From Deltaproteobacteria bacterium (GTDB lineage Bacteria; Myxococcota_A; UBA9160; SZUA-336), in the NCBI GenBank assembly GCA_031396695.1, contig JANNLG010000016.1, positions 54,494 to 118,493 of the forward strand: 64,000 nucleotides of DNA, written 5' to 3'. Of the stretch, positions 23,961 to 46,640 are shown piece after piece; position 1 is the first letter of the stretch, and every line of letters starts with the position of its first letter. A program made the translations under genes and the position numbers. The notes under the pieces are model-generated. The model was not told the origin of the DNA, made no database searches, and saw only the letters and a list, made by a program, of their open reading frames with translations.

Positions 23961-24635
23961 TCAGATGTGCTTGCGCACCTGAGTCGCGACGATGCCCGCG
24001 CCGACGATCATCAGCAGCACCGAGCTCGGCTCCGGGATCGGGTTGTTCGGGCCGGGGCCGGGCGTCGGGATGCGGTTCTCGTCGATGCGCAGCCCGGCGA
24101 GCGCGAAGTCGTTGTGCTCGCCCGAATCCGGCACGAGTCGGATCGAGGTGACCCAGCGGTTCACGCGCACGCTGAGCTCGCCGTCGCTGTTCGCGTAGTC
24201 GGAGTCGAAGTTGATGTCGAAGCCGTTGCCCATGATCGAGCCGGTCTCGTCGACGCGCAGGTAGTAGCGGCCCGAAGTGCTGAGCAGCGCGATGTCCACC
24301 GAGGTCAGGAACACGGCCTGCTCGAAGCGCACCGTGAGAACCTCCGGCGAGTCGATCTGGTACGTCGAGTCAGCGCTGCAGCCGCTCACCGAGCTCGGGC
24401 AGTTGATGCCCAGGCCGTTGCCGGAGCTCCAGGTCAGGTCGCTGCCGTTCGGGCTGGCGATGAACGTGACGTCGCCGAAGGCGGAGTTCCCGCTGTAGGT
24501 GACGGTCCCGTCGTAGCCGCTCGCGATGGTCGATCCGACGGAGCGCGTCAGATTGAGGCGCGCGGCACTCGCGGTGGAACCCAACAGGGTGGCAGAGGCA
24601 GCAAGGACGACAGCAGCGGACACCAGGAAGCGCAT
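23961..24635 (-). CDS. PEP-CTERM sorting-domain protein (secreted, exosortase substrate)
   Basis: N-terminal signal peptide MRFLVSAAVVLAASATLLGSTASA. C-terminus NNPIPEPSSVLLMIVGAGIVATQVRKHI is a PEP motif + TM helix + basic tail. Confidence 0.75.
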   Translation of the reverse strand: MRFLVSAAVVLAASATLLGSTASAARLNLTRSVGSTIASGYDGTVTYSGNSAFGDVTFIASPNGSDLTWSSGNGLGINCPSSVSGCSADSTYQIDSPEVLTVRFEQAVFLTSVDIALLSTSGRYYLRVDETGSIMGNGFDINFDSDYANSDGELSVRVNRWVTSIRLVPDSGEHNDFALAGLRIDENRIPTPGPGPNNPIPEPSSVLLMIVGAGIVATQVRKHI

Positions 24636-24681
24636 AGCGAAAGTACCCTCAGAGCTGGAAGTTTGGAGACCGATCCTCGAT

Positions 24682-24697
24682 GGTGATTTGTATCACC
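24682..24697. repeat. Inverted repeat GGTGA-N6-TCACC in AT-richer promoter region upstream of the PEP-CTERM gene
   Basis: Seen directly, in the 165-bp spacer between the selenoprotein stop and the PEP-CTERM gene start. Confidence 0.4.
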
Positions 24698-24800
24698 TTC
24701 CTAACTACCCGGTCAAGCTCACCTTTTTCGAACATTCAACGTTCGGAGTGGTATGCCAGCCACACACCGGAGGCAGCGAAGCGAAGCTTCGCGAGCTCCG

Positions 24801-25325
24801 CTACTTGGCGTCGGAAATTGCCTGTAGGACCGAGTCCACGATCGCCTCCGCCTTGGCGCGCATCTCGGCGTCGGTGGCGTCCTGGATCGGGTGAGGTACG
24901 AAGACGCAGCGAACGTCGGGCAGGCCGAGTGCGCGCGCCTGACCCGCGGCGGCGTCCTCGAAGACGCTCGAGGCCACGAAAACCGACGGCCGACCCTGGA
25001 GCTCGAACCAAACTGTGTCGTGCACACTGCACGTCGTACAGGAGCCTCAATCGGCCAGGGCTTCGATCACGAAGCCGCACTCCTCTGCGATCCGGCGCCG
25101 CAGTTCGAGCGGCGCGGGCTTGGTGAACGTGGGTTTGCGGTAGCGCCGGAACGCGACGTCGGGCAATCGCTCGCGCAGTAGCTGCTCGAGCCGGTCGAGC
25201 AGCACATCGCCGCGCGGCTTGATGATGTCGAGCAACGCGACCGTGCCCGTCACGGTGCCGTGTCGAGCCGCGAGCGCGCGGCGGATCGGCACGCGCTCAT
25301 CGGTGGGATCGAGAATCGTCGTCAC
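24801..25325 (-). CDS. UGSC-motif selenoprotein (in-frame TGA at 25049..25047 read as Sec)
   Basis: ORFs 25047..26003 (C-terminal ~92 codons) and 24801..25025 are in the same frame, separated only by TGA. Read-through gives ...IAEECGFVIEALAD-U-GSCTTCSVHDTVWFEL... (Sec-Gly-Ser-Cys then CxxC). Start GTG 25325 overlaps the upstream TGA (GTGA). A hairpin lies 7 nt downstream of the UGA. Confidence 0.6.
25013..25041 (-). promoter_or_regulatory. SECIS-like hairpin downstream of in-frame UGA
   Basis: mRNA sequence CUGU-ACGA-CGUG-CAGUGUG-CACG-AC-ACAG: 4+4 bp stem with internal loop and 7-nt apical loop, starting 7 nt 3' of UGA. Position is consistent with bacterial SECIS elements. Not energy-computed. 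Confidence 0.4.
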
Positions 25326-27949
25326 CCGGAGCTTCCCTCGTCTGTTTCGATCGCGCGGGTCGTCATTACAGAGCCGAGCGGTCCCGACACCCAGCCCTGG
25401 AAGTATGCGCCGAACTTCCCCGCCTCGCCGCCCGCGACGACCAGGGTGATGTCCCCGGGCGTGCGGAACTTCGGCACGCGCGCCTCGGCGCCGAGCTTCG
25501 CGAGCAGCTCGTCGGGCAGGCCCTCGGCGCAAACGTCGTCGCGCAGCAGCTCGCGCAGCGGACGCGACGTGACCTCCTGAATGCGCGCGCGGAGCTGATC
25601 CTTCGTGAAAGCGTCGCGTTTGAAGGTGTCGACGTGCTCGGGCGGCACGACCACCACGATCTCGCCGTGCAGGTAGTGCTTGGGGTGGTTCGCCGCCTGC
25701 AGCACGAGTCCGTAGCTGGTGGCGAGCCCGCGCGCATCGCGGGACAGCTGGTCGATGAAGCCGTTCGGCGCGCCGCCGGCGAAGGCGGTGACGGTGCTCT
25801 GCTCGCGCGCGAAGCCGCGCTCGACGTGCAGCGGCGCCCAGTCGCTGCGCTCTTCGTTCTCCGCGAAGCACATCGTGAACTTGCCCGGCTGACCGAGCGC
25901 CGCGCGGTCGACCTCGCCGGGTCGACCGCCACCCAGGTTCCGCACCACGAGCTGCACCGCCCGGCCGATCGTCGCGTTGGCGCGGTTGCCCTGCCCCAGG
26001 CAATTGATTCCGGAGTTCATGCCGATGCGCGCGCGGATCGGGCCGTTCACGATCAGCACCGGCGTGGGAAAGAACGTGGTCGCCAACACGCCGTGCAGGT
26101 TGAACTCGGGCGTGCAGATCGCCTCGACCGCTGCGATCACGACTGGAAGGTAGGCGGGCTTGCAGCCCGCCATGACCGCGTTGATCGCGATCTTCTCGAC
26201 CGTCGCGGGCGCGTAGTTCGGCGCGACCTCGGCCACCACGTCCTGCGCCGCGCGGCGTGTGCCCTCGAGCATGCGCATGACACGCTCGGGTGTCGGCGGA
26301 ACGACGGGTAGCCCGTCCGTCAGGCCCTGGTCGAACAGGAACTCGAACGGATCGTCGGCGTCGCCGAGCTCGATCCGGCGCGCGCGCATCGGGCTGCTCG
26401 AGGCACGCGCCTCGAACCGCGCGGCCACTTCGGGATCGTTCGTGCGCGAGCCGCAGCCGGGGCGAAGCTCAGGTAGACGCGACCAATCGCGCGCCGGAGC
26501 GGGCGTTCCGGCGAGCTGCGCCATGCGTTCGAATAGCGCGCGCCAATCCTCGCGCGCGAAGCCGACGTAGCGAGCGAGCTCCTCGCCCCCTGCGTCGAGC
26601 AGCACTGTGGTCGGAACTGCATCGATCTCCGCGCCGAACGAGACCGTGAGCGCGGAGTCGTCGAGAAACGGCGTGCGCAGGCCGTGCTTCTCGCGCAGCG
26701 CGCGCCCGCCGTCGTCATCCTGCGAGACGATCGCCACGTCGAGCACCGTGCCGAACGCTTCGTGCGCCGCCTCGACGATCGGAAGCGTGAGCTCGCAGGT
26801 GGGACAGCCCGCGTGGGCGAACACGAGCAGCCTCGCTCGGCCCGACGGCCACACGTGCGCGCGCGCATCGGTGTCGAGCAAGCGAAACGCGGGAACCGCC
26901 GCCACGCGCGCAGTATAGCCGGAGCGCCAGCGAGCCTGCGGGGCAGGCTTCGGAGCGCGCATCTTCTCGAGCTCGTGCTTGAAGCGCTCGCACGGGTCCT
27001 CGTCGTCGACGCGCGGCGTGAACCAGATCAGATCGAACTCCGTGCCGAACTCGGCCGCGCGTAGCGACGGGTCCTGCTTCGATTCGACGGAACCGGCGGG
27101 CACCTCGCTGAAGGCGAGCGTGAGCACTCGGCGCTGCGGCTCCCGCCGAGCCAAGTAGAGCGGCACGCCGCGGTCGCGCCGGACGTGCCCCGTGCCCGCG
27201 ATCAACACGCCACCGTCGGACTCGCCCGACCCGAGTAGCGCGTCGGCGAGCGTCGCGTCGCGCGCGCGTTGCACGGCGATCATCGCGTCGACCATCGCCT
27301 CGGGCGCCATCCCGCAGTGCGCCTCGCGCACTTCGTCCGCGAACGCCCGCCGCGCCTCGTCCGACGGGGGAGGCTCGAGCGCGAGCCGCGCGCGCTCGGC
27401 GGGCGGAAGCGCGTCGAGTGAGCGAAGCCGCATCTGCGCGAGCTGCGCGCGAGCGAGATCTCCGGGCACGATCGCCAACCGCGCTGCGAGCGCCGCCGCG
27501 AAGATCGGCCGGTACAGCGCGAAGTCGGGCCAGCCGCCGTGCGCCCAGTCGAGCGCCACGGCGAGCGCGTCGGGGTCGTCGGGATGCGCCGCGATCGCGG
27601 CCTCCAACACCGCTGCGCGATCGCGGGGAATCATCTCGAACACCACGGCCGGCCGCCGTCCCGCGCCCGCGAGCGATTCGACCAGCCACGCCTGCAGCCG
27701 GTGATGGTCCGGGTTGTCGTGCTTCTCGCCCAGCAGCACGAACGCGGAGCCGCGCGCGCGCGAGAGAACGTCGGCGGGCGTGACGAAGCGACGCTGTTCG
27801 GTGTCGAGGATGCGCCCGACCAACGCGTCCTCGCGACCCAGCGGTGCCTGCCAGGCGAGCCACGGCTCTGGCACCGCTCGCGGCGCGATCGCGGAATTCG
27901 CGCAGCCAACGACGAGGCTCGCGAAGAGCAGCGCGGTGGCGAGCCGCAT
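25322..27949 (-). CDS. 876-aa lipoprotein: ChaN-family domain + TlpA-like thioredoxin (CPTC) domain + C-terminal domain of unknown function
   Basis: Single stop-free frame from ATG 27949. Lipobox LVVGCANS. ChaN motifs VLLGEKHDNPDHH and VVFEMIPRD. Redoxin segment LLVFAHAGCPTCELTLPIVEA ... VPTTVLLDAGG. Then ~430 aa with Cys-containing conserved-looking blocks (AINAVMAGCKPAYLPVVIAAV, GINCLGQGNRANATIGRA). The upstream part of the 25322..28480 ORF is shadow. Confidence 0.6.
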   Translation of the reverse strand: MRLATALLFASLVVGCANSAIAPRAVPEPWLAWQAPLGREDALVGRILDTEQRRFVTPADVLSRARGSAFVLLGEKHDNPDHHRLQAWLVESLAGAGRRPAVVFEMIPRDRAAVLEAAIAAHPDDPDALAVALDWAHGGWPDFALYRPIFAAALAARLAIVPGDLARAQLAQMRLRSLDALPPAERARLALEPPPSDEARRAFADEVREAHCGMAPEAMVDAMIAVQRARDATLADALLGSGESDGGVLIAGTGHVRRDRGVPLYLARREPQRRVLTLAFSEVPAGSVESKQDPSLRAAEFGTEFDLIWFTPRVDDEDPCERFKHELEKMRAPKPAPQARWRSGYTARVAAVPAFRLLDTDARAHVWPSGRARLLVFAHAGCPTCELTLPIVEAAHEAFGTVLDVAIVSQDDDGGRALREKHGLRTPFLDDSALTVSFGAEIDAVPTTVLLDAGGEELARYVGFAREDWRALFERMAQLAGTPAPARDWSRLPELRPGCGSRTNDPEVAARFEARASSSPMRARRIELGDADDPFEFLFDQGLTDGLPVVPPTPERVMRMLEGTRRAAQDVVAEVAPNYAPATVEKIAINAVMAGCKPAYLPVVIAAVEAICTPEFNLHGVLATTFFPTPVLIVNGPIRARIGMNSGINCLGQGNRANATIGRAVQLVVRNLGGGRPGEVDRAALGQPGKFTMCFAENEERSDWAPLHVERGFAREQSTVTAFAGGAPNGFIDQLSRDARGLATSYGLVLQAANHPKHYLHGEIVVVVPPEHVDTFKRDAFTKDQLRARIQEVTSRPLRELLRDDVCAEGLPDELLAKLGAEARVPKFRTPGDITLVVAGGEAGKFGAYFQGWVSGPLGSVMTTRAIETDEGSSG

Positions 27950-28590
27950 CAGCCCGATTCCAGGTCGACGCCCGCGAGCGCGAGTCCGATCCAGACGATC
28001 CCGAGCAGCAGCGACGCGAGCGATGCCGCCACGAACACGCGCCGATAGGCGCGGCTCGCCTCCTGTTGCGGCGCGAGCACCCCGAGCAGCCAGGCGATCC
28101 CCATCATCGAGACGACGGTGCCTGCGCCGAAGCCGGCCAGATAGAGCGACGACTCCAGCCAGGAATGCATGCCGGCGGCGGGCAGCACCGCCAGCGTGGC
28201 GCCCGTTCCGACGAGCCCGTGCAGCGTGCCGATCGAGAGCGCGGCGGTCGCGTGAATGTGAACGTGCCCCCGGCCGGCCGCGTGGGAGAAGTGGTCCACT
28301 GCGCGGCGCTGGTGCCGCAACCCCCACAGTCCGACGGCCACGAGCACGAACCCGACCAGGTAGTCGCCCGCGTCCCCGAGCAGGTCCAGGTCGAGCCAAT
28401 CTGTCGCCGAGACGACCAGCAGAGCCACCGTGATGATGCCGAGCGCATGACCGATGCCCCAGCGCAGGCCGACGACCCACGCTTTCTCGCGCGCCTCGAC
28501 CGAGAACGGCGCGAGCGCGGCGACGTGATCGGGCCCGAGCACCACGTGCCCGAAGCCGGCTGCGAGACCGGTGAAGAAGACGAGGATCAC
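27949..28590 (-). CDS. HupE/UreJ-like (or NicO-like) metal transporter membrane protein
   Basis: Polytopic membrane protein with GFGHVVLGPDHVAALAP (H-x4-G-x-DH type motif) and HVHIH. GTG start overlaps the gamma-CA stop (GTGA); stop overlaps the downstream ATG. Confidence 0.5.
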   Translation of the reverse strand: MILVFFTGLAAGFGHVVLGPDHVAALAPFSVEAREKAWVVGLRWGIGHALGIITVALLVVSATDWLDLDLLGDAGDYLVGFVLVAVGLWGLRHQRRAVDHFSHAAGRGHVHIHATAALSIGTLHGLVGTGATLAVLPAAGMHSWLESSLYLAGFGAGTVVSMMGIAWLLGVLAPQQEASRAYRRVFVAASLASLLLGIVWIGLALAGVDLESG

Positions 28591-29123
28591 GGGGTCGGAC
28601 GCGCCAGCGCGGCCCGGTACTCGGCCGCGAGCTCCACGTAGTGGCGGTTCTGCTCGTCGAGCACCGCGCGTTCCTCGTCGGACACGGGCCGGACGAAGCG
28701 GGCGGGCCGGCCGAGCCAGAGCTCGCGCGAGCCGACGCGCTTTCCGGGCGAGAGCAGCGAGCCTGCGCCCAGCATGCCCTCGCTCGCGACCACCGCGCCG
28801 TCCAGGATCACCGAGCCCATACCCACGAAGGCGCGATCCTCGAGCGTGCAGGCGTGCACGATGCAGCCGTGGCCGATCGTGACCTCTACACCGATCAGCG
28901 TCGGCAGCCCCTCGCGCGAGACGTGGATGATCGAGCCGTCCTGGAAGTTCGTGCGCGCGCCGATCCGCACCTGCTGCACGTCCCCGCGCACCACGCAGCC
29001 GAACCACACGCTCGCCTGTGCGCCGAGCTCGACGTCACCGATCAGCGTCGCCCCCGGAGCCACGAACGCATCGGGCGCGAGACGCGGCAGGCATCCGCGG
29101 TAGGGCAGCAACCGGGCTTCCAA
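28587..29123 (-). CDS. Gamma carbonic anhydrase family protein (hexapeptide-repeat, YrdA/PaaY-like)
   Basis: Left-handed beta-helix hexapeptide repeats (IGDVELGAQASVWFGCVVRGDVQQVRIGARTNFQDGSIIH) with the His ligand pattern. Confidence 0.8.
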   Translation of the reverse strand: MEARLLPYRGCLPRLAPDAFVAPGATLIGDVELGAQASVWFGCVVRGDVQQVRIGARTNFQDGSIIHVSREGLPTLIGVEVTIGHGCIVHACTLEDRAFVGMGSVILDGAVVASEGMLGAGSLLSPGKRVGSRELWLGRPARFVRPVSDEERAVLDEQNRHYVELAAEYRAALARPTP

Positions 29124-29235
29124 AGTGCGCGGATTCTACCGCCCGCGCGCAGGCTTAGAAGCTCGGGGGCGGCGCCGCGAACGGTCCCGGGATGAATCTT
29201 GACTTGTTTGTACAGTTTATTAGGCTGCGGGCTCG
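29124..29235. promoter_or_regulatory. Divergent promoter region between the gamma-CA/selenoprotein operon and rrf2-suf operon
   Basis: 112-bp spacer with the only AT-rich tract locally (CTTGACTTGTTTGTACAGTTTATTAGGCT), containing a TTGACT -35-like hexamer and partial dyad symmetry. Likely the Rrf2 operator and promoters. Confidence 0.4.
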
Positions 29236-29709
29236 ATGCAGCTTCTCGCGCAAGAAGAGTATGGGTTGCGCTGCCTGATCCAGGTGGCCCGGCAGCGAGG
29301 CCCTGACCCGCTCACGATCCCCGAGATCGCCGAGCGCGAGGGGATTTCGCCCGAATACGCCGCCAAGCTGATGCGCGCGCTGCGTCAGACCGAGTTCGTG
29401 CTCAGCACGCGCGGCGCCGGGGGTGGCTATCGGCTCGCGCGCCCGGCCGGCGAGATCACCGCCTGGCAGGTGATCCAGGCGCTGGGCGGCTCGCTCTTTC
29501 CGGCCGAGTTCTGCGAGACGCATCCCGGCCAGCTGCGCGACTGCGTCCACTCGACCGGCTGCTCGCTGCGCGGACTCTGGAGCTCGGTCGAGAGCGCGAT
29601 CCGCAACGTGCTCGAGGGCGTGACGCTCGCCGACCTCGCACGCGACGACCGGATCCTGTTCGGGATCGACGGGCCGCCGCTCGAGCCCAAAGCGCAGGCG
29701 CCGCGATGA
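29236..29709 (+). CDS. Rrf2 family transcriptional regulator (IscR/SufR-like)
   Basis: N-terminal wHTH ([24 protein letters not shown]) and C-terminal Cys cluster (C..C..C: [18 protein letters not shown]) for Fe-S sensing. Confidence 0.8.
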
Positions 29710-40920: not shown

Positions 40921-41138
40921 CCACCGGCTAGCTCTCGATGGTGAGCCCCCTCCCCCCAGTGCCGCGGCACGTCGAGTGCCCGCGCGCCGGCCTACATGGC
41001 GGCGCGACGGGAGACTTGCGTTCGCGCACCGGGAACGGGCGCTCACCGGACCGCGACCATGCGGTTCGCACGTTGTGCCTCAACGAACCGGCTGCGACGG
41101 GAAAGCCCCGCCGCAGCCGGTTCCGCGAGGCGCTGGTG

Positions 41139-44100
41139 ATGCTCGCGCTCACCGTGCTTCTGTTTCCGTTCAGCGCACGCGCGCAGACACCCGCGGGCAC
41201 GCCGATCCCGAACACGGGCTACGCGACCTACGACATCGGCGCCACCACCGGAATCGTCCGGCCGTCGAACACGCTGGTCATCACGACCGCCGCGTTCGGA
41301 ACCAGTTCGAGCCTGGAGTTCATGCGCTATGCGCCCGGCGCTCCCGGCTCGATCACCTACGCCGTCTCGCCCACGCAGTGCTTCACGGGCGGATCGTTCA
41401 GCGCCCTGCCCGCGCCCACCGCGTACGGCGGCGGCGTGATCAACCTGGCCAACGTCGAGCTCGAGCTCACGTCGAGCTACCACCCGGGTGAGCCGGTCTT
41501 CGTGCGGCTGGTCGACGCGGATCAGAACCTGAATCCCGCGCTCGCCGAATCGATCCTGGTCACGCTCGCGACACCGAGCGTCGCGGACGTCGAGCAGCTG
41601 CAGCTCTTCGAGACTGGCGTGAACACGGGCATCTTCGTCGGCTACGTGCCCACGGCGGCGCCACCGGCGCCGGCGAACGACTGCGTGCTCGCCGCTCCGT
41701 CGGGTCAGACCGTCACCGGCAGCTACACCGATGCGAGTAACGCCGCGGACACCGATACCGACAGCGCGCTGATCGACCCCGAGAGCCGGGTCTTCGACAG
41801 CACGAACGGCTCGCCGGTCGACGGCGCGACCGTGACCCTGATCGACGACGCCACCGGACTGCCCGCTGCGGGCATCCTCGGCGACGACGGTCTCTCCGCC
41901 TTCCCCGCCACGCTCACCAGCGGCGGCTCGGTCACCGATGGCGGCGGGCAGATCTACAACTTCGGCCCGGGCGGCTACCGCTACCCGGTCGTTCCCGCGG
42001 GCAGCTATCGACTGCAGGTGACGCCGCCCGCCGCGTACACGTTCCCGAGCGGTGTGGCCGACGCCACGCTGCAGACCTTGCCCGGCGCACCGTTCGCGCT
42101 CGCGCTCGGCTCGCGCGGCGAAGTCTTCGCCGTGCCGGTCGGTCCGACCTTCCAGCTCGATCTGCCGGTCGACACCGCGTCGGGCTTCGGCTTCATCTCG
42201 ATCGACGCCAGCCGCGACGTGGTCTCGCTCGGCGAGCACTTCCAGTTCGACGTGCGCGTCGAAAACCCGGGCGTGCTCGGAGCGCCGCTCGGCGTCGACG
42301 TGACCGTCGTATTGCCGCTCGGCATCCGCTTCCTGCCCGGCAGCGTGCGCATCGACGACGGCAAGCAGCCCGATCCGGTGATCTCGCCGGACGGCCGCAC
42401 CCTGACCTGGACGCTACCCGCGAGCGCGCTCCCCGTCGTGACACACATCCGGTTCACCGTGAAGGTCGGGCCGAGCGCCGAGATCGGCCTCACGCGCACC
42501 ACCGCGCGCGCGCAGGCGCTGGGCGGAACGAGCACCGAGGACGCCGTCGCCACGGTGCGGGTCGTCGAGGACCTGGGCGCGAACAACTCCTACATCCTCG
42601 GCCGCGTTTCCGAGGGCGCCTGCGACACCGACGACTTCGGCGGCAAGGGCGTTTCGGGCGTGCGGGTGTACCTCGAGGACGGCTCGTTCTCGATCAGCGA
42701 CTCGAACGGCTACTACCACTTCGCCGGCGTCGTTCCCGGCGCGCACGTGGTGCAGATGGACGTGCAGAGCCTGCCCGGCTTCTACGAGCCGCTGCCGTGC
42801 GCGAAGGACGAAGGCCAGGCCTTCGCCGGCCGGCCGTTCTCGCAGTTCGTCGAGATGCAGGGCGGAACGATGTGGCGCAGCGACTTCCGTGTGCAGATGC
42901 GCGCGCGCGCGCAGGGCGGCATCAGCCAGCGGCTCGAGAGCCAGCTCGTCGGCGACACCATCCACTATCAGCTCGCGCTGCGCGGCAACGGCGTGGCCGT
43001 GCGCAATGCGCGTGCGATGGTGATGCTGCCCGAGGGCGTCCAGTTCGTGCCCGGCAGCACGCGCGACGCGGGCGCGCCGATGGCGGATCCCGAGTTCAAG
43101 GACGGCGTGCTCGTCTACCGGCTCGGCGAACACACCGAAGACAACTGGACGCTGGATCTCACGTTCGATGCGAAGCCCACGGGCCCGAGCGAGCGCCAGC
43201 TCGAGACGTCGTCCGTGGTGATGTTCGAGACGCCGGTCGAGAAGATCGGCAGGACGCCCGTCGCGAAGACGTTCCTTTCCGGCGAGTCGAGCTCGGGCAG
43301 CGGCATCCAGGTGGTCGAGACGCTCGGCCTGCGGCCGGGTGAGGATTGGAACTCGGTCACGACGCCCGCACCCGACGTCACGCCCGTGAAGCCCAGGGTG
43401 TTCAACAAGGCCTGGCTCGAGCAGGCGCAGCCGGGCTTTGCGTGGCTGTCGCCCGAGCCGGGCTTCGCCGCCGCGATCGCGAGCGTGAACATCGCCATTC
43501 AGCACGCGCCCGGCACCACACTCGAGCTGACGCAAAACGGCGTCGCGGTGCCCAAGTTCAACTTCGAGGGCGAGTTCTCCAACAACGCCAAGACCGTCTC
43601 GCTGTCGCGCTGGCGCGGCGTGGATCTGGTCGACGGCGAGAACGCCTTCGTGGTGCGCGCGCTCGACGCGCAGGGCAACGAAGTCGAGCGCTTCGAGCGC
43701 GGGCTTCACTTCGCCGGTCCGCCGTTCCGTGCCGAGCTCGTGCCCGAGCTCTCCAAGCTGGTGGCCGATGGCACCACGCCGCCGGTGATCGCCGTGCGCT
43801 TCACCGACGAGGACGACAAGCCCGCGCGCGAAGGACAGGTCGGCACGTTCCAGGTCGAGGCACCGTACCGCCCGAACCTCGAGCCCGCGCTGCGCGAGCT
43901 GAAGCGTCAGGCGGGCCAGCCGCCCGAGTTGCCGAGCTACGCGATCGGTCAGGACGGCATCGCGCTGATCGAGCTCGCGCCCACCACCACTTCCGGACGC
44001 GTGAACCTCCGCTTCGCGCTGGCCGGCAACCACGAGAAGAAGCTCCACCCCTGGCTCGAGGCGACCGCGCGCGAGTGGGTGCTGGTCGGCCTGACCGGTG

Positions 44101-46640
44101 GCACGCTCATGTACGACTCGGTCTCGGAGCACAGCGAGAGTCTCGTGCCGGGCGGCGTCGAGGACGGCTACGACCTCGACCGCGGCACCACCGTGTTCGC
44201 CAAGGGCCGCGTGAAGGGCTCGTGGCTGCTCACCGCCGCCTACGATTCGCGCCGCGAGTCGTACGAGTCGTCGAACGACATCGACCGCGCCGCGCTCGAA
44301 GGCGGTCTCGATCCGAACCAGTACTACACACTGTACGGTGACGAGACCACGCAGGGTTTCGAAGCGCCGAGCCAGCGCAAGCTGTACGTGAAGCTCGAGC
44401 GCAAGCAGTTCTACGCGCTGTTCGGCGACTTCCAGACCGGCCTCACGGTCACCGAACTGTCGCGCTACAACCGCAGCCTGAACGGTTTCCACACCGAGTA
44501 CGACGGCGACTACGTGAGCTTGAACGCGTTCGGCACCGACACCAGCCAGGCCTTCGTGCAGGACGAGATCCGCGGCGACGGCACGTCGGGCCTGTACCGG
44601 CTCTCGCGCCGCGAGATCGTGCTTAACAGCGAGACGGTATCGATCGAGATCCGCAATCGCTTCCACGGCGAGCAGGTGATCTCGACCGAGAACCAGGTGC
44701 GCTGGGTCGACTACAACATCGACTACAGCTCGGGCACGATCTTCTTCAAGCGGCCGATCCCGAGTACGGGCGAGGGCTTCAACCCCGTCTTCATCGTGGT
44801 GGAGTACGAGGCCGACGACGACTCGGACGAGGAGATCAACGGCGGCGGACGCGCGGCCGTGAAGCTGTTCGACGACAACGTCGAGCTCGGCACCTCGCTG
44901 ATCCACGAGGGCACGGTCGGGCAGACCTCGAGCCTGTACGGCAGCGATCTGCGCATCGACCTCGACGCCTCCACCAGCCTGCGCGGCGAGTACGCGATGA
45001 CGCGCTCGGCGCTGCTCGACTCGGACCTGGATCCAAACGGTGGCGCGTGGCTCGCGGAGCTTTCGCGCCGCGATCGCGATCTCGACTCGCGCGTGTACTG
45101 GCGCGAGCAGCGGCCGGGCTTCGGGCTCGGCCAGCAGAGCGCGAGCGAAACGAACATGCAGCAACTCGGCCTGGACGCGCGCTATCGCCTCTCCGACTCG
45201 CTCTCGCTCTCGGGCGAGGCGTTCCGCCAGGTCGACAGCGCCTCCGACGCGCGCCGCGATCTGTTCCAGGGCCGCGTCGATCACCACGAGGGACCGGTCA
45301 GCGCCTACGGCGGCCTGCGCTTCGCGCACGACGTGTTCTCGGACGGTGAGGACGCGTCGTCGCCGCAGGCGCTCGGCGGGGGCAGCTACACCCTGTACCA
45401 GAACCGACTGAAGCTGCGCGCCGACACGGAAGTGACGCTCTCGGGCGACGAGAGCCTCGACTTCCCGACGCGCTTCCTGGTCGGCGCGGACTTCGAGCTG
45501 CTGCCCGAGCTGACCGTGTTCGGCGAGGAGGAGTTCACGCTCGCCAGCGAGCGCAGCACCGCTTCCACGCGCGTGGGCTTGCGCACGAGCCCGTGGTCCG
45601 GCGGCCAGGCCACCGCGGCGATCGGCCAGCGCAGTCAGCAAGACAGCGCGCGCCTGTTCGGCACGCTCGGCCTGTTGCAGACCTATCAGCTCAGCGACGC
45701 GCTTTCGTTCGACTTCGCGGTCGACAACTCCGTGACACTCTCCGGTGACGACACGGCCGCGACCTCGATCTCGCCGTTCGCGCCCAACCAGCCGGTGAAC
45801 TTCGGCCTGGCCGGCAACGCGCAGGGCGACGACTTCACCTCGGTCTCCGTGGGCACCACCTACGCACAGGAGCTGTGGGCCGCGAACCTGCGCCTGGAGA
45901 CGCGGATCGGCAACGTGCAGGACAAGTGGAGCATCACCGCGGGCGCCTACCGCGAGCTCGCCGAGGGCATCGGCGTGGCCGTGCGCGCCGAATTCTTCGA
46001 CGCCAGCGGCTCGAGCTCCTCGCTCACCACCGGACCGGACGCGACCTCCGGCCCGGTCTACAGCTCCGACGGCAGCTTGCGCCCGAACACCGCCTACGAC
46101 GGCATCGAGTCGCTCGGCAAGCTGCGCGTGTCGGCGGTGTACCGTCCGATCGGCGGCCGCTACACGCTGCTCGAGTCACTCGAGCTGCGCAACGAGCGCC
46201 TGGACGACGCCGTCTTCCAGAGCAGCGCCACGCGCATCGTCAACAACATGAACCTGAACATCAAGCTCGATCGCAAGACGCAGGCTTCGCTGCAGTACGG
46301 CGCGAAGTACCTGCTCGAAGAGATCGACGGCGAGAACCTGCGCGGCTACACCGACGTGACGGGCCTCGAGCTGCGCCGCGCTCTGTGGGGGAGCTGGGAC
46401 GTCGGCGGCCGCGTGGGCATGCGCCACTCCTGGAGCGACGCCAACATCCAGGAGCTGTACGGCGTGTCGCTCGGATACATCCTGATGAAGAACATGTGGG
46501 TGAGCGCGGGCTACAACTGGGAAGGCTACCGAGACTCGGACTTCTCGGAAGGCGAGTGGACGAGCCGCGGGCCGTACATCTCGTTCCGGTACAAGTTCGA
46601 TCAGGAGACGGTGAAGGAGCTGCTCGACTGGGCGGAATAG
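41139..46640 (+). CDS. Giant (1834 aa) surface protein: signal peptide, DUF11-like repeats, carboxypeptidase-regulatory/SdrD-B-like segment, large C-terminal beta-rich domain
   Basis: Start taken at the ATG giving MLALTVLLFPFSARAQTP; upstream in-frame codons from 40938 lack signal character. Contains GTPIPNTGYATYDIGA DUF11 motif and SDSNGYYHFAGVVPG (CarboxypepD_reg-like). The C-terminal ~900 aa is Tyr/Gly/Ser/Asp-rich with alternating hydrophobics, consistent with a beta-barrel or beta-sandwich. Confidence 0.6.
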   Translation: MLALTVLLFPFSARAQTPAGTPIPNTGYATYDIGATTGIVRPSNTLVITTAAFGTSSSLEFMRYAPGAPGSITYAVSPTQCFTGGSFSALPAPTAYGGGVINLANVELELTSSYHPGEPVFVRLVDADQNLNPALAESILVTLATPSVADVEQLQLFETGVNTGIFVGYVPTAAPPAPANDCVLAAPSGQTVTGSYTDASNAADTDTDSALIDPESRVFDSTNGSPVDGATVTLIDDATGLPAAGILGDDGLSAFPATLTSGGSVTDGGGQIYNFGPGGYRYPVVPAGSYRLQVTPPAAYTFPSGVADATLQTLPGAPFALALGSRGEVFAVPVGPTFQLDLPVDTASGFGFISIDASRDVVSLGEHFQFDVRVENPGVLGAPLGVDVTVVLPLGIRFLPGSVRIDDGKQPDPVISPDGRTLTWTLPASALPVVTHIRFTVKVGPSAEIGLTRTTARAQALGGTSTEDAVATVRVVEDLGANNSYILGRVSEGACDTDDFGGKGVSGVRVYLEDGSFSISDSNGYYHFAGVVPGAHVVQMDVQSLPGFYEPLPCAKDEGQAFAGRPFSQFVEMQGGTMWRSDFRVQMRARAQGGISQRLESQLVGDTIHYQLALRGNGVAVRNARAMVMLPEGVQFVPGSTRDAGAPMADPEFKDGVLVYRLGEHTEDNWTLDLTFDAKPTGPSERQLETSSVVMFETPVEKIGRTPVAKTFLSGESSSGSGIQVVETLGLRPGEDWNSVTTPAPDVTPVKPRVFNKAWLEQAQPGFAWLSPEPGFAAAIASVNIAIQHAPGTTLELTQNGVAVPKFNFEGEFSNNAKTVSLSRWRGVDLVDGENAFVVRALDAQGNEVERFERGLHFAGPPFRAELVPELSKLVADGTTPPVIAVRFTDEDDKPAREGQVGTFQVEAPYRPNLEPALRELKRQAGQPPELPSYAIGQDGIALIELAPTTTSGRVNLRFALAGNHEKKLHPWLEATAREWVLVGLTGGTLMYDSVSEHSESLVPGGVEDGYDLDRGTTVFAKGRVKGSWLLTAAYDSRRESYESSNDIDRAALEGGLDPNQYYTLYGDETTQGFEAPSQRKLYVKLERKQFYALFGDFQTGLTVTELSRYNRSLNGFHTEYDGDYVSLNAFGTDTSQAFVQDEIRGDGTSGLYRLSRREIVLNSETVSIEIRNRFHGEQVISTENQVRWVDYNIDYSSGTIFFKRPIPSTGEGFNPVFIVVEYEADDDSDEEINGGGRAAVKLFDDNVELGTSLIHEGTVGQTSSLYGSDLRIDLDASTSLRGEYAMTRSALLDSDLDPNGGAWLAELSRRDRDLDSRVYWREQRPGFGLGQQSASETNMQQLGLDARYRLSDSLSLSGEAFRQVDSASDARRDLFQGRVDHHEGPVSAYGGLRFAHDVFSDGEDASSPQALGGGSYTLYQNRLKLRADTEVTLSGDESLDFPTRFLVGADFELLPELTVFGEEEFTLASERSTASTRVGLRTSPWSGGQATAAIGQRSQQDSARLFGTLGLLQTYQLSDALSFDFAVDNSVTLSGDDTAATSISPFAPNQPVNFGLAGNAQGDDFTSVSVGTTYAQELWAANLRLETRIGNVQDKWSITAGAYRELAEGIGVAVRAEFFDASGSSSSLTTGPDATSGPVYSSDGSLRPNTAYDGIESLGKLRVSAVYRPIGGRYTLLESLELRNERLDDAVFQSSATRIVNNMNLNIKLDRKTQASLQYGAKYLLEEIDGENLRGYTDVTGLELRRALWGSWDVGGRVGMRHSWSDANIQELYGVSLGYILMKNMWVSAGYNWEGYRDSDFSEGEWTSRGPYISFRYKFDQETVKELLDWAE

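What the first reader, a model, noticed from the sequence alone, without database searches (positions are those of the whole stretch)
25322..27949. 876-aa single-ORF fusion of ChaN domain, TlpA-like redoxin and a Cys-containing domain of unknown function
From ATG 27949 (lipoprotein signal LVVGCANS) to the stop at 25322 there is no stop codon.
- ChaN motifs (GEKHDNPDHH, VFEMIPRD) are followed, in the same polypeptide, by a redoxin (AHAGCPTCELT...VPTTVLLDAGG).
- The ~430-aa C-terminal region has conserved-looking blocks (DGLPVVPPTPERV, AINAVMAGCKPAYLPVVIAAV, GINCLGQGNRANATIGRAV, HPKHYLHGEIVVVVPPEHV) that I cannot assign to a known family.
- The ChaN-plus-thioredoxin fusion is unusual. The C-terminal domain may be the functional partner (substrate or reductase) of the downstream selenoprotein.
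Basis: partly seen in the sequence, partly recalled or inferred. Interest (0 to 1): 0.65.

Follow-up and report, generated by a model that had tools for sequence, protein, structure and literature searches.

The report
Two genes joined by lost stop
The long gene is really two neighbouring genes run together by a one-letter change at a stop codon; the second one carries a widespread, unstudied domain that almost always sits beside (or is fused to) a selenium-containing protein of unknown function, so it is very probably that protein's working partner.

Summary
The open frame is real: 875 codons plus a stop, with every quoted motif present. The three-part "fusion" is not an evolved design. Four syntenic relatives keep a stop codon between a ChaN lipoprotein gene (326-342 aa) and a 526-530 aa gene. 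The window has TGG where the closest relative has TAG, and the second gene's GTG start is intact. No other ChaN or redoxin homologue listed is fused.

The conserved unit is the second gene plus the UGSC selenoprotein gene that overlaps its stop. The second gene encodes a cytoplasmic ResA/TlpA-like thioredoxin fold with a CPTC motif, followed by a ~350-aa domain.

UGSC follows within 400 nt in 67 of 80 species, also follows stand-alone copies, and occurs fused to the domain. UGSC weakly resembles the selenocysteine region of glycine reductase selenoprotein B.

My best reading is a two-subunit selenoenzyme recycled by the fused thioredoxin-like domain. The chemistry is inferred, and the substrate is unknown.

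The parts
26930..27949 (-). ChaN-family lipoprotein gene proper (codons 1-340). Signal peptide with lipobox LVVGC at aa 12-16 (window 27902-27916).
   Evidence: Pfam PF04187, E 5e-45 on this part alone. The orthologues in L001, L088, L089 and L090 are separate genes of 326-342 aa.
26927..26929 (-). TGG (Trp341) at the position where the ChaN gene should stop. The closest relative has TAG here.
   Evidence: Junction alignments A1 and A3; coordinates.
26912..26917 (-). TATACT, six bases upstream of the GTG start. It is invariant in the window and four relatives while the rest of the spacer varies. It may be a -10 box for a leaderless transcript; this is inference only.
   Evidence: Alignment A3. 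The consensus promoter scan found nothing here.
26903..26905 (-). GTG (codon 349), the conserved start codon of the second gene.
   Evidence: It aligns with the annotated GTG starts of P0001 and P0002.
26504..26905 (-). ResA/TlpA-like thioredoxin-fold domain (aa 349-~482) with the CPTC motif at aa 382-385 (window 26795-26806). No signal peptide.
26399..26503 (-). Linker (aa ~483-517) with an invariant Cys499 in RPGCGS (window 26447-26464). Model confidence is low here.
   Evidence: R148, G150, C151, G152 and S153 are invariant in A2. pLDDT is 53-70 in this stretch.
25325..26398 (-). Unassigned ~350-aa domain (aa 518-875), the partner of UGSC. Near-universal residues: D545, G546, L547, P548, P552, A594, G595, C596, N658, G662, R663, E697, E699, W704, G840. 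C694 is 85% conserved.
25322..25324 (-). TGA stop of the long ORF. It overlaps the GTG start of the UGSC gene (GTGA).
   Evidence: Sequence read. L001 has the same 4-base overlap.
24801..25325 (-). UGSC-family selenoprotein gene (174 codons). The Sec codon TGA is at 25047-25049, in the motif LAD-U-GSC-TT-C-S.
   Evidence: NF041046, 157.6 bits (cut-off 125); PF24696, 154.9 bits. TGA is kept in 74 of 75 homologous loci.
25019..25033 (-). Hairpin CGUGCA-GUG-UGCACG, 16 nt after the UGA. It resembles a bacterial SECIS element.
   Evidence: It is present in all 22 diverse loci aligned, including at synonymous sites. The only change is G-C to G-U.

Best explanation
The 875-aa ORF is two adjacent genes read as one.

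Gene 1 (codons 1-340) encodes a ChaN-family lipoprotein that is exported to the periplasm. Gene 2 (codons 349-875) encodes a cytoplasmic protein with two parts: a ResA/TlpA-like thioredoxin fold carrying a CPTC motif, and a ~350-aa domain of no described family.

In relatives a single in-frame stop separates the two genes. Here that codon reads TGG. This is either a real stop-loss substitution or a base-call error, and it cannot be decided without the reads. The GTG start of gene 2 and its conserved upstream TATACT motif are intact, so gene 2 is probably still made on its own.

The conserved functional unit is gene 2 plus the UGSC selenoprotein gene that overlaps its stop codon. ChaN is not part of this unit.

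Proposed mechanism (inferred, not shown): the unknown domain and UGSC form a two-subunit selenoenzyme.
- The unknown domain supplies the substrate site, with near-universal Cys596, Asn658, Arg663 and Glu697/699.
- UGSC supplies the selenocysteine nucleophile, in a UxxCxxC motif like that of selenoprotein B of the glycine, sarcosine, betaine and D-proline reductases.
- The selenenyl-sulfide or disulfide left after turnover is re-reduced through the fused CPTC domain, possibly via the invariant linker Cys499.

The substrate is unknown.

Confidence by step:
- Two genes joined at a lost stop: about 0.9.
- The unknown domain is the dedicated partner of UGSC: about 0.85.
- Selenoprotein-B-like reductase chemistry: about 0.35.
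For: Stop loss:
- L001/L002 have TAG where the window has TGG, and the GTG start lies 7 codons later in the same frame.
- L088, L089 and L090 also have stops, and separate ChaN and 526-530 aa genes.
- The window and L001 are collinear over 12.2 kb at 88.2% identity.
- All 120 best hits to the C-terminal part are 408-595 aa, with no ChaN.
- A query spanning the junction finds only stand-alone ChaN proteins of at most 390 aa, covering at most 51% of the query.

Partnership with UGSC:
- UGSC lies on the same strand within 400 nt downstream in 67 of 80 species loci from many phyla. The median gap is 50 nt.
- Three of three stand-alone domain genes are also followed by UGSC.
- Proteins with a full UGSC domain fused N-terminally to the unknown domain exist (P0180, P0194, P0229, P0262, P0268). 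Sec-truncated versions exist too (P0165, P0181, P0188, P0215).
- No third gene family is conserved in the neighbourhood.
- A 2008 survey reported a 'UGSC/Unknown_1' fusion (PMC2398784).

Chemistry:
- 13 of 20 UGSC proteins hit the GrdB model TIGR01917 (best E 1.7e-4) and the GrdF model NF040794 (best E 3.5e-4). For the window's own protein, the one case where match coordinates were returned, the hit covers the Sec region, model positions ~340-424.
- The motif U-G-S-C-T-[TS]-C is invariant, and TGA is kept in 74 of 75 loci.
- In ocean metagenomes the family had 255 Sec forms against 21 Cys forms (PMC2398784, Table 2). This argues that Sec is needed for the chemistry itself.
- selA and selB lie next to the module in 8-9 of 80 loci.
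- The thioredoxin fold with CPTC is confirmed.
- The unknown domain has an enzyme-like set of near-invariant polar residues.
Against: - No experiment bears on any member of this system. Reviews up to 2026 still list UGSC as of unknown function (PMC13188914).
- The GrdB and GrdF similarity is far below family cut-offs (at most ~20 bits against 600-800) and covers only ~85 residues.
- The unknown domain shows no similarity to GrdE or PrdA or to any pyruvoyl proenzyme. It had no Pfam or NCBIfam hit at E<=10.
- No complex was modelled, so contact between Sec93 and Cys596 is untested.
- 10 of the 80 loci show no UGSC within 4 kb, although 3 of those are cut short.
- Remote tandem-domain members lack Cys694.
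- The leaderless-start idea rests on a 6-base motif in 5 related sequences, and the consensus promoter scan found nothing.
- Whether TGG is real or an error is unresolved. Two pattern scans of metagenome contigs found no second copy of this junction.
Confidence: 0.6

Rival explanations
1. This is a genuine, selected three-domain lipoprotein. ChaN, the redoxin and the unknown domain are exported together and work as one periplasmic enzyme.
For: The frame is open and the product is annotated as one 875-aa protein in the source record. TlpA/ResA-type redoxins are normally extracytoplasmic (established knowledge of the family). ChaN and the second gene are neighbours in all five members of this Myxococcota clade.
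Against: - All four relatives have a stop between the genes.
- None of the 240 listed homologues of either half is fused.
- Homologues of the second gene start directly with the first strand of the thioredoxin fold and have no signal peptide.
- The partner UGSC has no signal peptide and would stay in the cytoplasm.
- Outside this clade ChaN is never next to the module; 0 of 80 loci show it.
Confidence: 0.07
2. UGSC is itself the enzyme, a small selenol oxidoreductase or peroxidase. The second gene's product is only its dedicated recycling reductase or docking scaffold and has no substrate chemistry of its own.
For: The fused CPTC thioredoxin fold is a typical electron-donor module. Earlier surveys suggested that UGSC has a thioredoxin-like fold and a UxxC redox motif (PMC2398784). 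The adjacency and fusion evidence fits this reading equally well.
Against: - A 350-aa domain kept at 70% identity across phyla, with invariant Asn, Arg and Glu residues, is more than a scaffold would need.
- Stand-alone forms lack the thioredoxin domain altogether but keep UGSC next door. The unknown domain, not the redoxin, is therefore the constant partner.
- The strong preference for Sec over Cys and the GrdB-like motif point to chemistry harder than thiol-disulfide exchange.
Confidence: 0.22
3. The Sec/Cys triad of UGSC (UxxCxxC), together with the conserved cysteines of the unknown domain, binds a metal or iron-sulfur centre. The pair would then be a metalloprotein or a metal/selenium-handling system rather than a covalent-catalysis reductase.
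For: - UxxCxxC has the spacing of cluster- or metal-binding CxxCxxC motifs (established knowledge).
- In this clade the module sits beside an Rrf2 regulator, the suf operon, a ChaN 'iron-regulated' lipoprotein and a metal-transporter-like membrane protein.
Against: All the structural matches are below significance, with TM about 0.2. The iron-related neighbours occur only in this clade, in 0 of 80 other loci. Only two cysteines are conserved in the unknown domain, and one of them is missing in remote members.
Confidence: 0.1

Closest known systems
UGSC-containing selenoprotein (NCBIfam NF041046, Pfam PF24696) and its 'Unknown_1' fusion partner (Zhang & Gladyshev 2008, PMC2398784)
   Same: The downstream gene is a full member of the family, scoring above both curated cut-offs, with a TGA Sec codon and the UGSC motif. 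I found natural UGSC fusions to the same unknown domain, which matches the published description of a UGSC/Unknown_1 fusion.
   Different: The published alignment is held only as an image, so identity with 'Unknown_1' is likely but unverified. The paper called Unknown_1 limited to a few aquatic organisms. Here the domain has 5,360 clusters at 50% identity across many phyla, mostly as a thioredoxin-fused ~521-aa protein. No function has been published.
Selenoprotein B of the glycine, sarcosine, betaine and D-proline reductases (GrdB, GrdF, GrdH, PrdB, with partners GrdE, GrdI or PrdA and the thioredoxin system)
   Same: Both have a Sec in a UxxCxxC motif. UGSC shows sub-threshold sequence similarity over the Sec region. 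Both have a second, larger subunit encoded alongside. Both have a thioredoxin-type electron input, fused here and separate in glycine reductase (established knowledge of that system).
   Different: UGSC is 174 aa against ~435 aa. Scores are far below the family cut-offs. The partner domain shows no similarity to GrdE or PrdA, and no pyruvoyl-forming cleavage site is identifiable. The MAG taxa carrying the module are, to my knowledge, mostly aerobic soil and water lineages rather than amino-acid-fermenting anaerobes (not tested here). No GrdA, GrdC or GrdD genes are nearby.
TlpA/ResA/CcmG (DsbE) thiol-disulfide oxidoreductases
   Different: The known proteins are membrane-anchored or secreted and act in the periplasm. 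The native form of this domain has no signal peptide or anchor and is fused to a 350-aa cytoplasmic domain. Pfam Redoxin and AhpC-TSA scores fall below their gathering cut-offs.
ChaN (Campylobacter jejuni haem-binding lipoprotein; Pfam Cofac_haem_bdg, Tiki superfamily)
   Same: There is a strong HMM match over the whole domain, a lipoprotein signal peptide, and a size of about 340 aa.
   Different: In this record its stop codon is missing, so the ORF runs on into the next gene. ChaN has no link to the UGSC module outside this clade.

Membership tests
ChaN / Cofac_haem_bdg (PF04187) | Match to the family HMM above the curated cut-off | tested here: met
   151.9 bits against a cut-off of 27.7, covering profile positions 2-213 of 213. 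On codons 1-340 alone the score is 154.5 bits.
ChaN / Cofac_haem_bdg (PF04187) | Lipoprotein signal peptide with a lipobox cysteine | tested here: met
   MRLATALLFASLVVGC, read directly from the sequence. Relatives are annotated 'ChaN family lipoprotein'.
ChaN / Cofac_haem_bdg (PF04187) | Haem binding | not testable with these tools
   This needs biochemistry.
TlpA/ResA/CcmG thiol-disulfide oxidoreductases | Thioredoxin fold with the family's extra elements | tested here: met
TlpA/ResA/CcmG thiol-disulfide oxidoreductases | CxxC active site | tested here: met
   CPTC at aa 382-385. C, P and T are invariant and the second C is >=90% conserved in 62 homologues.
TlpA/ResA/CcmG thiol-disulfide oxidoreductases | Score above curated cut-offs of the family models | tested here: not met
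   Pfam Redoxin 22.4 bits against 26.6; AhpC-TSA 16.5 against 26; NCBIfam ResA 13.5 against 170; MauD 27.2 against 188.6.
TlpA/ResA/CcmG thiol-disulfide oxidoreductases | Extracytoplasmic location (signal peptide or membrane anchor) | tested here: not met
   Native homologues begin 'MAALPPFSLVD...', directly at strand 1 of the fold, with no hydrophobic stretch. This was judged by inspection only; no signal-peptide predictor was available.
UGSC family (seleno)protein (downstream gene) | Match above curated cut-offs | tested here: met
   NF041046 157.6 bits against 125; PF24696 154.9 against 25.
UGSC family (seleno)protein (downstream gene) | In-frame TGA at the U of UGSC, with conserved coding on both sides | tested here: met
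   TGA at 25047-25049. It is TGA in 74 of 75 homologous loci, with an invariant LAD-U-GSC context.
UGSC family (seleno)protein (downstream gene) | SECIS-type hairpin after the UGA | tested here: inconclusive
   A conserved 6-bp hairpin with a GUN loop lies 16 nt after the UGA in 22 of 22 loci, including at synonymous sites. There are no compensatory changes. The single-sequence fold is no better than shuffles, z 0.99. Rfam gave no match.
Selenoprotein B of Stickland reductases (GrdB/GrdF/GrdH/PrdB) | Match above curated cut-offs | tested here: not met
   The window's UGSC scores 13.0 bits against 800 (GrdF) and 11.4 against 602 (GrdB). The best E among 20 relatives is 1.7e-4.
Selenoprotein B of Stickland reductases (GrdB/GrdF/GrdH/PrdB) | Sec in a UxxCxxC motif | tested here: met
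   U-G-S-C-T-[TS]-C is invariant in 75 loci. That GrdB carries this motif is from my own knowledge of the literature and was not checked here.
Selenoprotein B of Stickland reductases (GrdB/GrdF/GrdH/PrdB) | Partner proprotein of the GrdE/PrdA type (pyruvoyl-forming) | tested here: not met
   The partner domain has no Pfam or NCBIfam hit at E<=10, and no such gene is conserved nearby.
'Unknown_1' domain fused to UGSC (PMC2398784, Fig. S1A) | Occurs fused to a UGSC domain | tested here: met
   P0180, P0194, P0229, P0262 and P0268 have UGSC at aa ~3-180 followed by the domain.
'Unknown_1' domain fused to UGSC (PMC2398784, Fig. S1A) | Sequence match to the published alignment | not testable with these tools
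   Panel A of the supplementary figure is held only as an image.

The most novel reading that the evidence does not exclude
The unassigned ~350-aa domain and the UGSC selenoprotein together form a previously unrecognised two-subunit selenoenzyme. It would be built on a fold absent from the PDB and would be widespread in lineages that, to my knowledge, are mostly aerobic soil, freshwater and marine bacteria. It would be a distant functional counterpart of the 'protein B' component of the anaerobic Stickland reductases, with its own fused thioredoxin-like electron input. This would assign a role to one of the most abundant environmental selenoproteins, whose function has been unknown since 2007.
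Probability: 0.3. Interest if true: 0.8.

Novelty: new member of a known kind. Interest (0 to 1): 0.45.

Why it matters
The headline feature, a ChaN-redoxin-unknown triple fusion, is a one-base accident or error and should not be catalogued as a new architecture.

What lies beneath it is more useful. UGSC is among the most abundant selenoproteins in ocean and freshwater metagenomes, and it is almost always Sec rather than Cys, yet no function is known. This analysis shows four things about it:
- It has a near-obligatory partner domain that has no family model and no detectable structural relative.
- That partner usually carries its own thioredoxin-like module.
- UGSC is distantly related to the selenocysteine region of glycine reductase selenoprotein B.
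- In some genomes the selenocysteine-insertion genes lie beside the pair.

Together these turn "unknown selenoprotein" into a concrete two-protein system that can be co-expressed and tested.

Tried and rejected
- Pfam and NCBIfam on the C-terminal 390 aa at E<=10 gave nothing.
- A profile search of PDB sequences hit only the thioredoxin part. The UGSC profile found 0 hits.
- The recurring weak hits are cyclic amide hydrolases, class I fumarate hydratase, PrpD and RidA-like proteins. All are below significance, and I treated them as leads only.
- The AlphaFold database library was not available.
- Rfam found no SECIS or other RNA family, only tRNA-Asn.
- The single-sequence fold of the post-UGA region is no better than shuffles.
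- The sigma-70 consensus scan found no promoter in 24600-29300.
- Two metagenome pattern scans for the junction, allowing TAG or TGG, found no match. The fusion could therefore be neither confirmed nor refuted in independent assemblies.
- An exact look-up found the 875-aa product only once. The two other members of its cluster are C-terminal fragments that do not reach the junction.
- I looked for a third conserved gene around the module in 80 loci and found none. The next most frequent neighbours were a family III CoA-transferase (11 loci), a short-chain dehydrogenase (10) and selB/selA (9 and 8).
- I looked for selA and selB in the window. The only hit is the GTPase domain of TypA/BipA.
- The 177-aa gene downstream in L005, which might have been a divergent UGSC, is an unrelated membrane protein.


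Full report
**1.
The minus-strand frame from ATG 27949 to the TGA at 25322-25324 has 875 sense codons and no internal stop. The frame remains open upstream to GTG 28480, but ATG 27949 is the sensible start. It is followed by a lipoprotein signal (MRLATALLFASLVVGC). It also overlaps the stop of the upstream DsbD_2-like membrane-protein gene by one base, as in the closest relative.

Domain assignments:
- Pfam places ChaN (PF04187) at aa 62-266, with E 3e-44.
- The last ~390 aa match nothing in Pfam or NCBIfam even at E<=10.

**2. The "fusion" comes from a single base at a stop codon.**
The best homologues of the C-terminal part are 90% identical yet only 526-530 aa long. They contain the redoxin and the unknown domain but no ChaN.

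The closest is from a Myxococcota MAG (L001). It is collinear with the window over 12.2 kb at 88.2% nucleotide identity. Its gene order is suf operon, Rrf2, hexapeptide protein, DsbD_2-like protein, ChaN (339 aa), a 527-aa gene, then UGSC. Three further clade members (L088, L089, L090) likewise have separate ChaN genes (342, 326 and 340 aa) and separate genes of 526-530 aa.

At the junction L001 reads ...CCC TAG CGC TCC GGA TAT ACT GCC GGC GTG GCG.... The window reads ...CGC TGG CGC TCC GGC TAT ACT GCG CGC GTG GCG.... The window's TGG (26927-26929, codon 341) thus stands where the relative has TAG. The GTG start of the second gene (26903-26905, codon 349) is conserved and in frame. The other three relatives also carry a stop here (TGA, at slightly different positions).

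Nothing else is fused. None of the 120 best hits to the C-terminal part exceeds 595 aa. A query spanning the junction retrieves only stand-alone ChaN lipoproteins of at most 390 aa, covering at most 51% of the query. The exact 875-aa product is on record once, from one NCBI contig. Two pattern scans of metagenome contigs found no independent copy of the junction.

The fused product also makes little topological sense. ChaN has a lipoprotein export signal. Native homologues of the second gene begin directly with the first strand of the thioredoxin fold and have no signal peptide. The UGSC partner has none either.

I conclude that these are two genes. Whether TGG is a true substitution or a base-call error cannot be settled without reads. 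At 12% divergence from the nearest relative, either is plausible.

A hexamer TATACT lies exactly six bases before the GTG. It is invariant in all five sequences while the rest of the spacer varies. That geometry would fit a -10 box driving a leaderless transcript. This is only an inference, and the consensus promoter scan found nothing.

**3. The conserved unit is the second gene plus UGSC.**
The gene whose GTG overlaps the long ORF's stop (GTGA at 25322-25325) is a UGSC-family selenoprotein. It scores 157.6 bits on NF041046 (cut-off 125) and 154.9 bits on PF24696. Its in-frame TGA is at 25047-25049.

I fetched 80 loci, one per species, that encode relatives of the second gene. The phyla include Chloroflexota, Binatota, Alpha-, Beta- and Gammaproteobacteria, Acidobacteriota, Actinomycetota, Myxococcota and Spirochaetota.
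- UGSC lies on the same strand within 400 nt downstream in 67 of them, with a median gap of 50 nt. Three more have it within 2 kb.
- Ten show none, and three of those contigs end too soon to tell.
- ChaN is upstream only in the window's own clade.
- The Sec codon is TGA in 74 of 75 loci, within an invariant LAD-U-GSC-T[TS]-C-S motif.
- A hairpin CGUGCA-GUN-UGCA[CU]G, 16 nt after the UGA, is kept in all 22 diverse loci examined, even at synonymous positions.

An all-against-all clustering of neighbouring ORFs found no third conserved family.

**4. The unknown domain is large, widespread, unassigned and structurally unmatched.**
An exhaustive HMMER search of 1.84 billion cluster representatives found 5,360 with E<=1e-3 and 1,437 with E<=1e-30. 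Five architectures appear:
- stand-alone, ~340-370 aa;
- thioredoxin-fused, ~520 aa;
- UGSC-fused, ~540-560 aa;
- Sec-truncated UGSC fusions, ~410-450 aa;
- tandem duplications, ~710-740 aa.

Pfam confirms a complete UGSC domain at the N-terminus of P0180, P0194, P0229, P0262 and P0268. It confirms the post-Sec UGSC fragment at the N-terminus of P0165, P0181, P0188 and P0215. The three stand-alone members I looked up are each followed by a UGSC gene. All listed stand-alone members are "hypothetical protein" with no Pfam domain.

A 2008 metagenome survey described a "UGSC/Unknown_1" fusion (PMC2398784). This is very probably the same domain, but the published alignment is held only as an image.

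Across 105 full-length domains from 50%-identity representatives, these residues are near-universal:
- D545, G546, L547, P548 and P552;
- A594, G595 and C596 (96%);
- N658 (100%), G662 and R663 (100%);
- E697 (100%), E699, W704 and G840.

Cys694 is 85% conserved. The thioredoxin-fused forms add an invariant Cys499 in a low-confidence linker, RPGCGS.

**5. How it most likely works.**
Two things are shown: tight genomic coupling, and physical fusion of the unknown domain with UGSC. The rest is inferred.

Thirteen of 20 UGSC proteins give sub-threshold hits to glycine reductase selenoprotein B (TIGR01917, best E 1.7e-4) and to sarcosine reductase GrdF (best E 3.5e-4). For the window's own protein, the one case where match coordinates were returned, the hit falls on the Sec-containing region, model positions ~340-424. 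The invariant UxxCxxC is the motif I recall for GrdB; this is my own knowledge and was not checked here.

The family is overwhelmingly Sec rather than Cys. TGA is kept in 74 of 75 loci, and the ocean survey counted 255 Sec forms against 21 Cys forms (PMC2398784, Table 2). The selA and selB genes sit beside the module in 8-9 of the 80 loci. These facts suggest chemistry that truly needs selenium, as in the Stickland reductases, rather than simple thiol-disulfide exchange.

My best model is therefore a two-subunit selenoenzyme. The unknown domain binds the substrate. UGSC supplies the Sec nucleophile and the resolving cysteines. The fused CPTC domain re-reduces the oxidised centre. I put this chemistry at about 0.35.

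Two rivals remain:
- UGSC is the whole enzyme and the big protein only recycles it (0.22).
- The Sec/Cys residues bind a metal or iron-sulfur centre (0.10).

**6. Comparison with what is known, and novelty.**
The downstream gene is a member of the UGSC family. The ChaN part is a member of the ChaN family. The redoxin part has the TlpA/ResA fold and a CxxC motif, but it fails that family's score cut-offs and its extracytoplasmic location. It resembles the family without being a member. UGSC is not a member of the selenoprotein B family (about 11-13 bits against cut-offs of 600-800), and its partner is unlike GrdE or PrdA. The analogy is functional only.

Reviews up to 2026 still list UGSC as uncharacterised (PMC9312934 and PMC13188914). 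A full-text search found no functional study.

The window's copy is one more member of a catalogued but unstudied system, with an idiosyncratic stop-loss join to its neighbour. The fusion itself deserves a low score. The underlying pair is a worthwhile open problem, and the evidence here makes it directly testable.

Noticed in passing
L028, L030, L036, L041, L044, L048, L059, L085 (selA and selB); L066 (selB only): The selenocysteine-insertion genes selA (TIGR00474, E 9e-176) and selB (TIGR00475, E 3e-85) lie directly beside the redoxin-domain/UGSC module in 8-9 of 80 species from several phyla. UGSC may be a principal reason these genomes keep the Sec machinery. The window itself has no selA or selB.
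   Followed up: partly
L076 (Candidatus Blastococcus massiliensis AP3, NZ_HG931175.1), about 5650: The UGSC homologue has TAG instead of TGA at the selenocysteine position, with otherwise intact flanking motifs. It is the only exception among 75 loci. It could be a pseudogene, an error or something else.
   Followed up: no
window 26912-26917 (- strand): TATACT, exactly 6 nt upstream of the GTG start of the second gene, is invariant in the window and four relatives although the surrounding spacer varies. This geometry fits a -10 box with a leaderless GUG start. The consensus promoter scan does not support it.
   Followed up: partly
L073 6825-7898, L078 6165-7280, L083 6266-7300: Three Dehalococcoidia genomes carry a second, stand-alone copy of the unknown domain immediately after UGSC. 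The order is redoxin-domain gene, UGSC, domain paralogue.
   Followed up: no
P0152 (741 aa), P0135 (717 aa) and similar representatives: Some proteins consist of two tandem copies of the unknown domain. They have no UGSC or redoxin part, and in P0152 both copies lack the second conserved cysteine (the Cys694 equivalent).
   Followed up: no
window 27952-28590 (-) and 28590-29123 (-): Upstream of ChaN, and translationally coupled to it by a 1-base overlap, lies a 213-aa membrane protein (weak DsbD_2 match, with GPDH and HG motifs like metal transporters). A hexapeptide-repeat protein precedes it. On the other side are a divergent Rrf2 regulator and the sufBCD genes. This iron-related context is specific to this Myxococcota clade.
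   Followed up: partly
window 23961-24635 (-): A 224-aa secreted protein ends in a PEP-CTERM-like tail (PEPSSVLLMIVGAGIVATQVRKHI). It has no Pfam match. It is conserved in position, just after UGSC, in the clade relatives.
   Followed up: no
window 40938-46640 (+): A 1,900-aa ORF has essentially no Pfam domain; the only match is a sub-threshold CarboxypepD_reg hit at aa 566-607. It was not examined further. In 70% G+C DNA its reality as a gene is unverified.
   Followed up: no
window 25047-26003 (-), 25366-25932 (-), 25634-26311 (+) and others: Many long overlapping ORFs (up to 382 aa) lie in other frames of the same stretch. In the 80 loci, the antisense ORFs of this gene even cluster as a pseudo-family (79 loci). 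This shows that ORF length alone means little in this G+C-rich DNA.
   Followed up: yes
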